The notes beneath the pieces are model-generated. The model was not told the origin of the DNA. It searched no databases and worked only from the letters and a program-made list of their open reading frames with translations. A program made the position numbers and the translations under genes. A stretch of 64,000 nt of DNA from NCBI GenBank assembly GCA_963806435.1, contig CAWEBD010000075.1, positions 5,395-69,394 on the forward strand, read 5' to 3'. Position 1 is the stretch's first letter. Each line of letters opens with the position of its first letter. Positions 50,814 to 53,800 of the stretch are shown here, in pieces. The DNA comes from an uncultured Bacteroidota bacterium (GTDB lineage: Bacteria > Bacteroidota > Ignavibacteria > Kryptoniales > JAKASW01).

Positions 50814-53800
50814 TCAGTGGATTGGAACTACCCGGGCGGAGCCATAGCTCCCAAACGATTTGATCTTCTCGAGGAATGCGACCGCCTCTCCGCTGGTTCT
50901 GAAGCTCGGAGTAAACACGTCGAACTCCATCTTCTCAGAGTTAAAACCGACAAATGCGATCAGGCCGGTTCGCCATCGGAAGGAATTCGCGAACCAGTCC
51001 GCCTGGTATTCACTCGCAAACTTTCCGAGCGTGATAGTGTACATGGACTGGGTTTCGACCTGTCCGTCGATAAACACGAAGGCATTGCGGCAATCCCACC
51101 TCTTCTTCAATCGATTCATCACCGCCTCCGATTCCGGCTCCGACCTGTAAGGTCCAACCATGACAGAGAACAAACGAGTGGATCTCTTAAACTGGGTTAC
51201 CGTTGAATATCCTGTTTCTCGTTTTAACCTGGCCGCGAACCGGGTTGCCTGGCGCACCGACTGGAATGCCGCGAGCTGAACGGAGAAGAGGTAGTGTGAA
51301 CTGGTATCGAGTGTCGAGCAGACGAATGAATCGAAGAATCCGAACTTGTTCATGAAAACATCCAATCTCTCCAAAGCGGTTTTCTTCGCAGCGAAAGTAT
51401 CCGTCTGCACGACGTATAAATGCGATCTCGAATTGAATCTCGCTTCCAGTATCTGGCCGGTCCTTATCCTGGCCCACCTGGCCAATTTCGCGGCGCGGTC
51501 TGCCGTTGTGAAAGCACCCACCTGGACGACGTACTTCTCGGGTTCTCTCGCAGTAGTCGACGCAACGGGCTCGGTCTTTTGAGGAGGCGGTTCAACACTG
51601 GCCGGGGCTCCGGATGCCTGCTTGCTCTTCAATACTATTCCAAGTCCTTCGACAAAGTCACCCTCCTTGGTCGGCTTGACGGTAAAATCCAGGACGCGCG
51701 GCTCGGAGTACACTCCCAACACTGAGAGCTGGGCGGAGTCAACCTGTGCTTCATACTGTCCGGGAGGCAATCCCATATAGTAGAAACTGCCGTCATTAAA
51801 TACCGTCACGCTTCTCTTCACTCCGTTGGAAAGGGATTCGATAACGAGTGTCAACCCGGCGATCGCACTTGACCTGCCGGCGTGCTGGCGGAGGACTGTA
51901 CCTTCGACGATCCCTCCCACATAGAAAGGCACGTCAATCCGCTTGTAGGAGTTCGGGTCGGTAACGAAGGAGAACGACTTCTCTTTAGGTATCCAGAGAG
52001 GATTGCGGATTGAACTCAGGTCGACGTCCGCGCTGTATTGCGTATATGGTAGGAGATTCCAGTCCCGAATAACGCCATCAGAGGATGTTTGTGATTCCGC
52101 CGCCTGCCTGAGGGTGATCTGTCCGTTCTTGATGACCTCCTCCCCGTCGTCGTATTTTCCATTGCCGTTCGCGTCGACGAACATCCTCATGGAAGCCGCT
52201 GAATGTCCGACCCACTCGAGATCGTTGAAGAGGAAGCGTTTGTAGTTGCTATCGAAACCAATGGACCCACTTATGTTTTCCGAGTACGATTGCGCGCCGT
52301 TCTGGACCTGGGCGGTCGTAGTCGATCGGGTGAAAGGTAGATCGGCGACGATCTGCAAGTTGAAAGTCGTCGCTTTGTTGATATAATCTCTCTCTGCTGA
52401 AACGCCGATCCTAATGTACCGCTGGATATTCTTGGAAAGCTGCAACGAAATATCGTCGAGCGAGTTTTTCAGCACCCCATATCTCGCCGTCACATCCACG
52501 AGTGTCCCATTGAGGAAATCGAGAGCTCCCTGATCGAAAAAGAGAGAGTAGAGCAATGATCCCGTGTAAGCGTAGCTCCGGATAGCTCCTCCGCCGCCGT
52601 AGTCGATGATAGATCCGAGGTATCCGACGGAGGCGTTGAACTGGGACAGACTCGAGGACAAATACCCGGAGTAGCTGTACGCGGTTTGGCCGCCGACGTA
52701 GTCCTGAGCACTCCCCGCCATCCTTACGTTAAAGCCACTGTTCCCAATCGAGAAGGGCATATAGGCGTCGGCTTCCGCATCCTCGATCTTCATACCCGGG
52801 TTGTAAAGGAGGTTCTGGCTGTAGTGCGCGTACGACAGGTCAAAGGCCGCCTGCGAGGCATATAGCGCGTTGAAGGTCGACCTGTAAAAGGCGGATGGCG
52901 CCGCATCGATACTCAACATATATTCGGGCCCGAAACGCATCGAAAGCGAGTTATAAAGCAGGGGCTTCGAAAAGAGCGGGTTATCCACGTAATCCATGCC
53001 GATCTTGTCGCTCATCCAGTCAGTAAGGCCGAAGATGACGTTTGCCGAGAGGAAATTGTAGTCCGTATTGTTAAGCTTGCCGCCGCTGACGGTGTAGTTC
53101 ACCTGGCCGGCTGGCACGAAGGTGAAGGGTATCTGAAGCCTTCTGTCGCTTTCGCGAAACTCACCATTGGGGCCGTAGTACTTCAGCTGGACGTATGAGG
53201 TGCCGTAAACCAGCGGGATCGAAAACTCCGCGTGCCCCTGGGCATCCGCCCTCCTGTATCCGACGAGCTGACCGTTCAGATAAAGTTCGACATCCCAGTT
53301 GGGACTTGTATTCGCGTCCACGACATACTTACCGAAAACGGTCCGCAACGTCAGAGGCTGATTCGATACCTGAACACCGCGGTAACCGTACTGAGTCAAT
53401 CCGTCGGAATACAAGTTGCCCAGCCCCGCGTAAGAGATGTAATCCGTGGAGTCGAATGTGTATTTCCAGCTGAACGTGCTGGAGTAGAGGCTGGGACTGC
53501 CGCTTGACACAGTGCCGAGAAGGGATCCTTCAGTCTCACCGCCGAGAATCTCGGCACCGCCTGTCAGCCCGTAGTTGTAATTCGATTGTCCACCGCTGCT
53601 GTAGGCGGACAGAGAGTAATCAAGGACGCCACCGTTCAACATGAAGTGCTGCCGCGGGAACTCAAGAGGGGCCTGGATAAGATTGGCCTGCGGAGCGACA
53701 ATCATGTAATTCCTCCGCGTCTCTCTCCGGTAGTCTTCAATGATAGGCAATTCCTGATTCGTGTTGAGGACCAGCGAGAGTGAATTGAAGTCGACGCTCA

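What the first reader, a model, noticed from the sequence alone, without database searches (positions are those of the whole stretch)
50817..51626. Usher-like protein carries three C-terminal SPOR-like peptidoglycan-binding repeats
The barrel and two beta-sandwich-like domains are followed by a Pro/Ser/Thr/Ala-rich linker (KQASGAPASVEPPPQKTEPVASTTAREPE). After that, the last ~240 aa form three ~70-aa repeats with the SPOR signature (beta-alpha-beta-beta-alpha-beta; aromatic-x-[VIL]-Q-[VL]-[GA]-[AK]-F ... [VF]-x-V-x-x-G-P-[FY]). Repeat 1 (51321-51536): KYVVQVGAFTTADRAAKLARWA...LYVVQTDTFAAKKTALERL. Repeat 2 (51069-51293): YLFSVQLAAFQSVRQATRFAARL...LFSVMVGPYRSEPESEAVMNRL. Repeat 3 (50823-51044): MYTITLGKFASEYQADWFANSF...FDVFTPSFRTSGEAVAFLEKI. 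Usher C-terminal domains face the periplasm, so a SPOR array would tether the assembly platform to peptidoglycan, possibly denuded septal glycan. I am not aware of this architecture being described for ushers.
Basis: partly seen in the sequence, partly recalled or inferred. Interest (0 to 1): 0.7.

Follow-up and report, generated by a model that had tools for sequence, protein, structure and literature searches.

The report
Pilus usher with cell-wall-binding tail
An outer-membrane pilus-assembly pore (usher) from an uncultured Kryptoniota-like bacterium ends in three SPOR cell-wall-binding domains, and its relatives carry SPOR, OmpA or LysM modules at the same spot, which suggests that this uncharacterised family of ushers is physically tied to the cell wall.

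Summary
The minus-strand gene ending at 50814 encodes about 1133 aa. The true N-terminus lies 77 codons upstream of the ORF-finder's ATG. The last ~240 aa are three tandem SPOR domains behind a disordered, Pro/Ser/Thr/Ala-rich linker of about 30 aa. Pfam PF05036 scores 73 bits. The repeats are homologous to each other (hhalign 98-99%). The AF2 tail model (pLDDT 87) matches the CwlC SPOR domain.

Pfam does not recognise the body as an usher, but its AF2 model (pLDDT 82) matches FimD and PapC (Foldseek E 2.5e-31). The gene sits in a conserved operon of DUF4402 subunits, a weakly PapD-like protein and the usher.

The family is large (at least 2599 cluster representatives) and spread across Kryptoniota, Balneolaceae, Bacteroidales and Ignavibacteria. 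After the second C-terminal domain, its members carry SPOR x1-5, OmpA, LysM, TPR or nothing.

Three unrelated peptidoglycan-binding folds at one position argue that the tail tethers the usher to the sacculus. Septal targeting is untested, and a key SPOR arginine is missing from all three repeats. No paper found describes such ushers; databases label them only "SPOR domain-containing". I rate this a new variant of a known kind, of moderately high interest.

The parts
50814..54215 (-). Full usher-like gene, about 1133 aa plus stop. The ORF finder lists only 50814-53984, starting at an internal ATG.
   Evidence: The frame is open up to the stop at 54219-54221. The upstream 77 codons encode a signal-peptide-like segment and a conserved N-terminal region, and homologues of 1113-1150 aa cover 99-100% of the extended query. 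ATC at 54213-54215 lies 6 nt after GGGAG and aligns with the Met of P0007.
53763..54116 (-). Periplasmic N-terminal domain (residues 34-151)
   Evidence: AF2 model. Weak Cu_amine_oxidN1 match in 9 of 33 homologues. Conserved at 46-73% identity across relatives.
52224..53666 (-). Outer-membrane beta-barrel (residues 184-664) with an internal plug sandwich (residues 293-362, window 53130-53339)
   Evidence: By my count of DSSP strands in the AF2 model there are 6 strands, then a 6-strand plug, then 18 strands. Foldseek top hits are FimD 9fw9_D (E 2.5e-31), FimD 3rfz_B and PapC 7lhg_C, with the translocation pores 2vqi and 3ohn also matched.
51918..52202 (-). C-terminal domain 1, a beta-sandwich (residues 672-766)
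   Evidence: AF2 model. Sub-threshold SdrD_B match in the window protein, found in 16 of 33 homologues with best E 4.6e-9.
51624..51914 (-). C-terminal domain 2, a beta-sandwich (residues 768-864)
   Evidence: AF2 model. CarboxypepD_reg match at 24.9 bits in the window protein, found in 14 of 33 homologues with best E 6.8e-8.
51534..51623 (-). Disordered Pro/Ser/Thr/Ala-rich linker (residues 865-894)
   Evidence: pLDDT below 50 for residues 867-891. Only 7-35% identity to homologues and variable length.
51315..51533 (-). SPOR repeat 1 (residues 895-967)
   Evidence: Pfam SPOR 26.5 bits when scanned alone. Beta-alpha-beta-beta-alpha-beta in both AF2 models. Keeps the beta1 Gln (VVQVGAF).
51057..51296 (-). 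SPOR repeat 2 (residues 974-1053), the most canonical of the three
   Evidence: Pfam SPOR 47.0 bits when scanned alone. Profile hit to the CwlC SPOR domain 1x60. Motifs SVQLAAF and LFSVMVGPY.
50820..51044 (-). SPOR repeat 3 (residues 1058-1132), degenerate
   Evidence: Pfam SPOR 19.1 bits alone, below the 21-bit cutoff. hhalign to repeats 1 and 2 gives 97.8% and 98.7%. It has the same fold in the model. Thr replaces the beta1 Gln.
54296..55117 (-). Putative periplasmic chaperone gene (273 aa, signal peptide), immediately upstream of the usher
   Evidence: phmmer found 76 homologous ORFs flanking the usher in the 85 related loci, in nearly every case directly upstream of it. PapD_N matches are weak: E 0.0098 here, 6 of 17 relatives with best E 0.0027. 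No PDB profile hit.
55157..56082 (-). Two-domain DUF4402-type subunit gene, split in this window by an apparent frameshift near 55664
   Evidence: Orthologues are single ORFs of 305-314 aa. tblastn switches frame directly after 'WLGGTVTP'.
56345..56857 (-). DUF4402 subunit gene (about 170 aa with signal peptide), the putative major fibre subunit
   Evidence: Pfam DUF4402 29.9-30.6 bits against a cutoff of 25.2. All 17 sampled homologues are DUF4402.
50228..50587 (-). Small secreted protein (119 aa) conserved downstream of the usher in the Kryptoniota-type loci
   Evidence: Signal peptide visible in the translation. 16 downstream homologues found. No family assignment.

Best explanation
The gene encodes the outer-membrane usher of a divergent chaperone-usher-type fibre system found in the FCB group of bacteria. 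Its subunits are DUF4402 proteins.

The protein is exported by a signal peptide and forms a plugged beta-barrel (24 strands by my count) in the outer membrane. Its N-terminal domain and two C-terminal sandwich domains lie in the periplasm. After the second C-terminal domain, a flexible linker of about 30 residues suspends three SPOR domains in the periplasm, where they bind the glycan strands of peptidoglycan non-covalently.

This ties the assembly pore to the sacculus. Pulling forces on the fibre are then passed to the cell wall rather than to the outer membrane alone, and the usher is held in place.

**Shown here:** domain identities, folds, operon structure, conservation, and the interchange of the tail with other peptidoglycan-binding modules.

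**Inferred:** periplasmic location (from usher topology), actual peptidoglycan binding, and the mechanical or positional role.
For: **SPOR tail**
- Pfam 73.1 bits; the three repeats scanned singly score 26.5, 47.0 and 19.1 bits.
- hhalign between the repeat families gives 97.8-99.1%.
- The tail model has pLDDT 87.1 and three beta-alpha-beta-beta-alpha-beta modules.
- It matches the CwlC SPOR domain 1x60 at TM 0.78, rmsd 2.4 A and by PDB profile.

**Usher body**
- The whole-protein model has pLDDT 82.3.
- Foldseek gives FimD and PapC at E 2.5e-31 to 1e-14 over 500-950 aligned columns.
- One homologue hits Pfam Usher PF00577.

**Operon**
- DUF4402 genes, a 273-aa chaperone-like gene and the usher are conserved in Kryptonia, Balneolales and other loci.

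**Tail interchange**
- Across 85 loci the position after the second C-terminal domain carries SPOR x1-3, OmpA x1-2, OmpA plus SPOR, TPR or nothing.
- Among 142 further cluster representatives: SPOR 56, OmpA 7, LysM 6, TPR at least 10, none 51.
- A neighbour-joining tree of the usher cores shows the tail types interspersed. The sister clade of the all-SPOR Kryptoniota clade carries OmpA.
- The OmpA tails keep the TD...G and N..LS..RA..V motifs.
- SPOR, OmpA_C and LysM share only peptidoglycan binding (established knowledge).

**Conservation**
- The three repeats stay colinear down to about 40% core identity, while the linker is unconserved.
Against: - No binding experiment was done.
- The basic beta3 residue important in FtsN (R285) and RlpA (R309) (PMC6895207) is replaced by Val, Ser and Asp in repeats 1, 2 and 3.
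- Repeat 3 also lacks the beta1 Gln.
- The SPOR tails evolve faster than the core.
- About a third of family members have no tail and some have TPR, so a wall anchor is not obligatory.
- The chaperone and subunit identities rest on weak or no homology to characterised chaperone-usher components.
- This copy lacks a canonical start codon, and a neighbouring subunit gene is frameshifted.
Confidence: 0.68

Rival explanations
1. The SPOR array is a spatial targeting device rather than a passive anchor. By binding amidase-processed (denuded) glycans enriched at the septum, it would recruit or retain ushers at division sites and new poles, giving polar fibres. This would be analogous to the AMIN domains of the PilQ secretin. 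It is not exclusive of anchoring.
For: Characterised SPOR domains bind denuded septal glycans (PMC6895207; abstracts). [quoted passage not shown] Repeats 1 and 2 keep the beta1 Gln and a hydrophobic residue at the FtsN W283 / RlpA L307 position. Multiple tandem SPOR domains would raise avidity.
Against: Close relatives replace SPOR with OmpA_C or LysM, which are not known to be septum-specific. That suggests general peptidoglycan binding is the selected property. The residue equivalent to R285 is missing in all three repeats. There are no localisation data.
Confidence: 0.25
2. The SPOR-like modules no longer bind peptidoglycan. They have been repurposed as periplasmic protein-protein interaction or docking domains, for example extra binding sites for chaperone-subunit complexes, or for usher oligomerisation.
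For: The key basic residue is lost in all three repeats, and repeat 3 is degenerate and below the Pfam threshold. The ferredoxin-like fold is generic; tandem ACT-like folds score as well as SPOR against the whole tail. Some relatives carry TPR, a protein-interaction module, at the same position.
Against: Pfam SPOR is clearly significant for repeats 1 and 2. Three independent peptidoglycan-binding families at the same position are hard to explain by protein docking. The OmpA tails retain the canonical peptidoglycan-binding motifs.
Confidence: 0.1
3. The barrel protein is not a fibre usher but another kind of outer-membrane translocon or porin, for example for a surface layer or non-fibre proteins. 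The SPOR tail would then be a general OmpA-like outer-membrane-to-wall staple.
For: Pfam Usher PF00577 does not hit the window protein. The chaperone-like gene has only weak PapD_N matches and no PDB profile hit. DUF4402 subunits have no significant match to solved pilins; Caf1 appears only at E 0.37.
Against: The best structural matches by many orders of magnitude are FimD and PapC, over the full length including the plug and terminal domains; porins and LptD score E 1e-6 or worse. The gene order, with several paralogous small secreted beta-rich subunits, a two-Ig-sized secreted protein and then the barrel, is the chaperone-usher layout.
Confidence: 0.1
4. In this particular genome the locus is decaying or mis-assembled, so the window copy is non-functional whatever the family does.
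For: There is no ATG/GTG/TTG start; ATC sits where P0007 has Met. There is a frameshift in the adjacent two-domain DUF4402 gene.
Against: The 3.4-kb usher frame is otherwise fully open, at 73% identity to intact orthologues and with all domains present. The other operon genes have open reading frames. Single-base errors are common in metagenome assemblies. A good Shine-Dalgarno sequence precedes the ATC.
Confidence: 0.12

Closest known systems
FimD / PapC outer-membrane ushers of classical chaperone-usher pili (PDB 3RFZ, 9FW9, 7LHG, 2VQI)
   Same: Same overall predicted architecture: an N-terminal periplasmic domain, a barrel with an internal plug (24 strands, plug between strands 6 and 7, by my count), and two C-terminal beta-sandwich domains. 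These are the top Foldseek hits, at E down to 2.5e-31. The operon also holds small secreted subunits and a chaperone-sized protein.
   Different: Only 11-14% sequence identity, and Pfam PF00577 does not hit. The C-terminal domains resemble the SdrD_B and CarboxypepD_reg types. The subunits are DUF4402. There is a 270-aa peptidoglycan-binding extension after the second C-terminal domain that FimD and PapC lack.
SPOR-domain proteins FtsN, DamX, DedD, RlpA and CwlC
   Same: Pfam SPOR signature and a beta-alpha-beta-beta-alpha-beta fold. The closest solved match is CwlC 1x60. There is weak NCBIfam similarity to the RlpA and FtsN SPOR regions. Like the usher, RlpA is an outer-membrane-associated protein with a periplasmic SPOR domain.
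   Different: The E. coli and P. aeruginosa proteins are inner-membrane or lipoprotein division factors with a single SPOR domain (my knowledge). Here three tandem SPOR domains are fused to an integral outer-membrane pore. The residue equivalent to R285 in FtsN and R309 in RlpA is absent.
PilQ secretins with N-terminal AMIN domains (type IVa pili)
   Same: An outer-membrane fibre conduit carrying tandem periplasmic peptidoglycan-binding domains. Presence or absence of those domains varies between lineages (PMC10653833; PMC5285504).
   Different: A different pore family (secretin, not usher), a different peptidoglycan-binding fold (AMIN, not SPOR), and an N-terminal rather than C-terminal position. 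This is an analogy, not homology.
OmpA-type outer-membrane-to-peptidoglycan tethers, and inverse autotransporters with a periplasmic LysM domain (for example YeeJ, PMC5595812)
   Same: A beta-barrel outer-membrane protein with a periplasmic peptidoglycan-binding module. Relatives of this usher literally carry OmpA_C or LysM in place of SPOR.
   Different: OmpA has a small 8-strand barrel and no secretion function (my knowledge). The inverse-autotransporter LysM is N-terminal (my knowledge).

Membership tests
SPOR domain (Pfam PF05036) | Significant match to the family profile | tested here: met
   73.1 bits against a cutoff of 21 for the whole protein. Scanned alone, repeat 1 scores 26.5 and repeat 2 scores 47.0; repeat 3 scores 19.1, just below the cutoff. 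27 of 33 homologues match.
SPOR domain (Pfam PF05036) | RNP-like beta-alpha-beta-beta-alpha-beta fold with a four-stranded antiparallel sheet | tested here: met
   AF2 tail model at pLDDT 87.1 with three such modules. Foldseek to the CwlC SPOR domain 1x60 gives TM 0.78, rmsd 2.4 A, 25% identity. Generic ferredoxin-like folds also match.
SPOR domain (Pfam PF05036) | Glycan-contacting residues on the sheet (FtsN Q251, W283, R285; RlpA Q270, L307, R309) | tested here: inconclusive
   The Gln is kept in repeats 1 and 2 and is Thr in repeat 3. Leu sits at the W283/L307 position in repeats 1 and 2. The R285/R309 position is Val, Ser and Asp in repeats 1, 2 and 3.
SPOR domain (Pfam PF05036) | Binding to peptidoglycan glycan strands lacking stem peptides | not testable with these tools
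   Needs sacculus pull-down, ITC or septal-localisation assays.
Outer-membrane usher (Pfam PF00577; FimD/PapC type) | Significant match to the Usher sequence profile | tested here: not met
   No PF00577 hit for the window protein at E up to 1. A profile of 33 homologues finds no usher in the PDB by sequence. Only 1 of 33 homologues (P0052) hits PF00577, at E 7e-7.
Outer-membrane usher (Pfam PF00577; FimD/PapC type) | 24-strand barrel with a plug domain inserted between strands 6 and 7, plus periplasmic N-terminal and two C-terminal domains | tested here: met
   This holds in the predicted structure only. The AF2 model has pLDDT 82.3, and its DSSP strand pattern reads, by my count, as 6 strands, a plug, then 18 strands. 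Foldseek to FimD and PapC gives E 2.5e-31 to 1e-25 over 740-950 columns.
Outer-membrane usher (Pfam PF00577; FimD/PapC type) | Encoded next to a PapD-like periplasmic chaperone | tested here: inconclusive
   The adjacent 273-aa secreted protein has 76 homologous ORFs flanking the usher in the 85 loci. PapD_N matches are weak: E 0.0098 here, 6 of 17 relatives with best E 0.0027. No PDB profile hit.
Outer-membrane usher (Pfam PF00577; FimD/PapC type) | Substrates are Ig-like subunits polymerised by donor-strand exchange | not tested
   The subunits are DUF4402. Only a sub-threshold profile match to Caf1 was found, at E 0.37. No structure or complex prediction was run.

The most novel reading that the evidence does not exclude
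The DUF4402 / chaperone-like / usher operons of the FCB group are a deep, so far unclassified branch of the chaperone-usher pathway. In this branch the usher is routinely coupled to the cell wall. In the SPOR-bearing lineages such as this one, the triple SPOR array reads out amidase-processed glycans, so that fibre assembly sites are laid down at the septum and inherited at new poles. That would be a chaperone-usher counterpart of AMIN-guided type IV pilus placement.
Probability: 0.2. Interest if true: 0.75.

Novelty: new variant of a known kind. Interest (0 to 1): 0.6.

Why it matters
To my knowledge, classical ushers are pictured as free-standing outer-membrane pores that work without contact with the cell wall. 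Here a large family (at least 2599 clusters at 50% identity), which neither Pfam's Usher model nor a profile search of PDB sequences detects as an usher, has an usher fold. In roughly half of the sampled members it carries a peptidoglycan-binding module (SPOR, OmpA_C or LysM) at one fixed position.

If the tail does bind the wall, three things follow:
- Wall anchoring becomes a design feature of chaperone-usher machines, at least in bacteria of the FCB group.
- It gives a testable explanation of how adhesive fibres resist shear, or are positioned, in these lineages.
- It corrects misleading annotations: these proteins are currently called 'SPOR domain-containing protein' or 'cell division protein DedD'.

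The work also identifies DUF4402 proteins as probable fibre subunits. Culturable hosts exist for experiments: Gracilimonas mengyeensis DSM 21985 carries SPOR x3, and Fodinibius salsisoli is tail-less.

Tried and rejected
- **Sequence route to an usher:** Pfam, NCBIfam and a PDB profile search gave no usher hit for the body. Only the structural route worked.
- **Chaperone-like family:** a profile against PDB sequences found nothing.
- **DUF4402 family:** a profile against the PDB gave only chance-level tailspike hits and a sub-threshold Caf1 hit.
- **Tail as one tandem query:** Foldseek is dominated by tandem ferredoxin/ACT folds. The informative hit is the single-domain CwlC match.
- **Exact contig lookup:** the 1056-aa product (P0001) was not on record. 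The organism is therefore inferred only from relatives and synteny, as Kryptoniota-like.
- **Trans-encoded SPOR or OmpA genes beside tail-less ushers:** no consistent pattern.
- **Porin or LptD-like identity:** considered and rejected; those matches are 25 or more orders of magnitude weaker than the ushers.
- **Chance repeat:** considered and rejected.
- **Literature:** searches for usher plus SPOR, peptidoglycan-binding or OmpA-like domain, for DUF4402, and for archaic chaperone-usher systems in Bacteroidetes found nothing relevant.
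Full report
**1. What is at the coordinates**

The ORF finder lists a 1056-aa minus-strand ORF at 50814-53984. Its frame stays open for another 77 codons, up to a stop at 54219-54221. That stretch encodes a signal-peptide-like segment (..RGYLRVGLLFALLAVSNRAEAQD..) followed by a segment (IYLSFNFGGLVNTVV..SVYVPV..) that is conserved in all full-length homologues. 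Those homologues are 1113-1150 aa long and cover 99-100% of the extended query.

There is no ATG, GTG or TTG in the extension. An ATC at 54213-54215 lies 6 nt after GGGAG and aligns with the Met of homologue P0007 (MCRISARKYL against ICARGYL). I therefore treat the protein as about 1133 aa (54215-50814) with either a non-canonical start or a base error.

**2.

- Pfam SPOR (PF05036) matches at 73.1 bits against a cutoff of 21.
- Scanned separately, the three segments score 26.5, 47.0 and 19.1 bits. Repeat 3 alone is just below the threshold.
- Alignments of each repeat from 15 orthologues are mutually homologous by hhalign: R1-R2 99.1% (E 6.5e-19), R1-R3 97.8% (E 1.3e-12), R2-R3 98.7% (E 1.7e-16).
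- A profile of the tails finds the SPOR domain of B. subtilis CwlC (1x60, E 8.8e-8) and, weakly, FtsN (1uta) among all PDB sequences.
- AlphaFold2 on the tail (pLDDT 87.1) gives three beta-alpha-beta-beta-alpha-beta modules. The single-domain structural match is 1x60: TM 0.78, rmsd 2.4 A, 25% identity, probability 1.00.
- Residues 867-891 have pLDDT below 50. The linker is unconserved (7-35% identity) and variable in length, as expected for a flexible tether.

**3. The body is an usher by fold, not by sequence**

No Pfam Usher hit appears for the window protein. A 33-sequence profile finds no usher among PDB sequences. The AlphaFold2 model of the whole protein (pLDDT 82.3) shows:

- an N-terminal domain (34-151);
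- six long strands (193-284);
- a six-strand sandwich (293-362);
- eighteen more strands (372-655);
- two beta-sandwich domains (672-766 and 768-864).

By my count that is a 24-strand barrel with a plug between strands 6 and 7, plus an N-terminal domain and two C-terminal domains. To my knowledge that is the FimD/PapC layout.

Foldseek against the PDB returns only ushers in the first 19 places: FimD 9fw9_D at E 2.5e-31, 3rfz_B at 4.2e-31, PapC 7lhg_C at 1.8e-25, and the translocation pores 2vqi and 3ohn at 1e-14 to 1e-17. Porins and LptD appear only at E 1e-6 or worse. One distant homologue (P0052) does hit PF00577. Because both ends of an even-stranded barrel are on the same side, and usher terminal domains are periplasmic (established for FimD and PapC), the tail is inferred to be periplasmic.

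**4. Genomic context**

Upstream on the same strand lie three genes:

- a 273-aa secreted protein (54296-55117);
- a two-domain DUF4402-like gene (55157-56082);
- a DUF4402 gene (56345-56857).

Downstream lies a small secreted protein (50228-50587).

The same order, several DUF4402 genes, then the ~273-aa gene, then the usher, is found in Kryptonia genomes. There even the flanking hemerythrin, SCO1, FGE-sulfatase and NirK genes are syntenic with the window. The order also holds in a Balneolales contig and in others. phmmer found 76 homologues of the 273-aa protein among the ORFs flanking the usher in the 85 loci, in nearly every case directly upstream of it.

The similarity of the 273-aa protein to PapD is only hinted at: PapD_N at E 0.0098 here, 6 of 17 relatives with best E 0.0027, and no PDB profile hit. 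All 17 sampled subunit homologues are DUF4402, with best E 2.4e-22. The only chaperone-usher subunit seen by profile is Caf1, at a non-significant E of 0.37. The system is therefore chaperone-usher-like by architecture. Only the usher fold is positively established.

**5. Comparative evidence on the tail**

The first homology search returned 57 proteins. Those that carry a source name are labelled Candidatus Kryptonia, Kryptoniota or Bacteroidetes and are called 'SPOR domain-containing protein', or 'DedD' by JGI. It also returned distant homologues whose tail is OmpA (PF00691), one with OmpA plus SPOR, and one with no tail.

A scan of species-representative genomes gave 80 loci in Kryptoniota, Balneolaceae, Bacteroidales, Ignavibacteria, Melioribacteraceae, Saprospiraceae, Longimicrobiales and Zixibacteria. 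These include the isolates Gracilimonas mengyeensis DSM 21985 (SPOR x3) and Fodinibius salsisoli (tail-less).

Classifying what follows the second C-terminal domain in these loci gives:

| Tail type | Loci |
|---|---|
| SPOR (1-3 copies) | about 30 |
| OmpA (1-2 copies, including the OmpA plus SPOR locus) | 5 |
| TPR | 4 |
| No tail | about 25 |

An exhaustive HMMER search with the family profile finds 2599 cluster representatives at E of 1e-30 or better. Among the 142 new ones in the top 150 the tails are:

| Tail type | Representatives |
|---|---|
| SPOR (49 by my local model, 7 more by Pfam) | 56 |
| OmpA | 7 |
| LysM (best E 1.2e-10) | 6 |
| TPR | at least 10 |
| None | 51 |
| Unclassified | the remainder |

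A neighbour-joining tree of the usher cores shows these states interspersed. The Kryptoniota clade is uniformly SPOR x3, its sister clade carries OmpA, and the Balneolaceae clade mixes SPOR x3, none and TPR. The OmpA tails keep the G[YFH][TS]D..G and N..LS..RA..V motifs typical of peptidoglycan-binding OmpA_C domains (the motif interpretation is from general knowledge).

SPOR, OmpA_C and LysM are structurally unrelated and share only non-covalent peptidoglycan binding. Their interchange at one position is the strongest argument that wall binding is the selected function of the tail.

**6. Mechanism proposed**

The usher sits in the outer membrane. A linker of about 30 residues, which could span up to roughly 10 nm if extended, lets three SPOR domains reach and bind glycan strands of the sacculus. 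That anchors the assembly platform. This would transmit tensile load on the fibre to the wall and restrict lateral movement of the usher.

Shown: domains, folds, operon and interchange of the tail. Inferred: periplasmic location, binding and mechanical role.

A non-exclusive alternative is septal or polar targeting through denuded glycans, as for PilQ AMIN domains (PMC10653833; PMC5285504). I rate it lower for two reasons. OmpA and LysM substitute for SPOR in close relatives. The residues important in FtsN and RlpA are also only partly conserved (PMC6895207):

| Position (FtsN / RlpA) | Repeat 1 | Repeat 2 | Repeat 3 |
|---|---|---|---|
| Q251 / Q270 | Gln | Gln | Thr |
| W283 / L307 | Leu | Leu | not assigned |
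| R285 / R309 | Val | Ser | Asp |

**7. Caveats specific to this window**

The usher has no canonical start codon (section 1). In addition, the two-domain DUF4402 gene is split by a frameshift right after WLGGTVTP, near 55664, whereas its orthologues are single ORFs of 305-314 aa. These may be assembly errors or early decay. The usher frame itself is intact over 3.4 kb.

**8. Novelty**

Full-text searches found nothing describing a peptidoglycan-binding usher, or this system at all. The searches covered 'SPOR domain' plus usher, chaperone-usher plus peptidoglycan-binding, usher plus OmpA-like domain, DUF4402, and archaic chaperone-usher systems in Bacteroidetes. Databases hold many copies, but labelled only by the SPOR tail.

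Precedents exist for peptidoglycan-binding modules on other envelope-spanning machines, namely PilQ AMIN domains and the LysM domain of inverse autotransporters. The principle is therefore not new, but its occurrence on ushers, and the whole FCB usher family, appear undescribed. I rate it a new variant of a known kind, with interest 0.6.

Noticed in passing
window 54141-54221 (minus strand): The usher gene has no ATG/GTG/TTG start. The conserved signal peptide begins at an ATC (54213-54215) 6 nt after GGGAG, where homologue P0007 has Met. The identical protein in the searched collection (P0001, 1056 aa) starts at the internal ATG, so it lacks the signal peptide and part of the N-terminal domain.
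   Followed up: partly
window 55157-56235 (minus strand), frameshift near 55664: The two adjacent ORFs (55627-56235 and 55157-55627) are halves of one two-domain DUF4402-like subunit gene. Its orthologues are single ORFs of 305-314 aa. The frame switches right after WLGGTVTP, in the sequence ACGCCGCCGGGAAT.
   Followed up: yes
L057 8971-13802; L060 8939-12863; L047 5861-9196: Where the usher homologue has a TPR tail instead of a peptidoglycan-binding tail, it is followed on the same strand by ORFs of about 630, 170 and 270-290 aa. In L057 and L060 a MotB-like protein then follows (a TM helix plus an OmpA_C domain; in L057 also SPOR-like repeats). The wall anchor may be supplied in trans in these systems.
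   Followed up: no
window 50228-50587 (minus strand): A 119-aa secreted protein with no family assignment is conserved immediately downstream of the usher in 16 related (mostly Kryptoniota-type) loci. It may be a further component of the system.
   Followed up: partly
window 45650-49587 and 57314-59716: The flanking genes are a NirK-like copper nitrite reductase with a cytochrome c domain, an FGE-sulfatase-like gene, SCO1/SenC, hemerythrin and a GH31 alpha-glucosidase. They are syntenic with a 4.57-Mb Kryptonia contig (L002), which places the window in a Kryptoniota-like genome.
   Followed up: partly
L025, L036, L032, L055 (record titles): Some loci carrying this FCB-type usher are binned as Methanofastidiosia archaeon, Nitriliruptoraceae, Thioalkalivibrio or Ectothiorhodospiraceae. 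L025, L036 and L032 are short contigs (3.8-5.5 kb) from CSSed sediment metagenomes, so these are probably binning errors rather than real taxonomic spread. L055 lies on a 145-kb contig and may be a different case.
   Followed up: no
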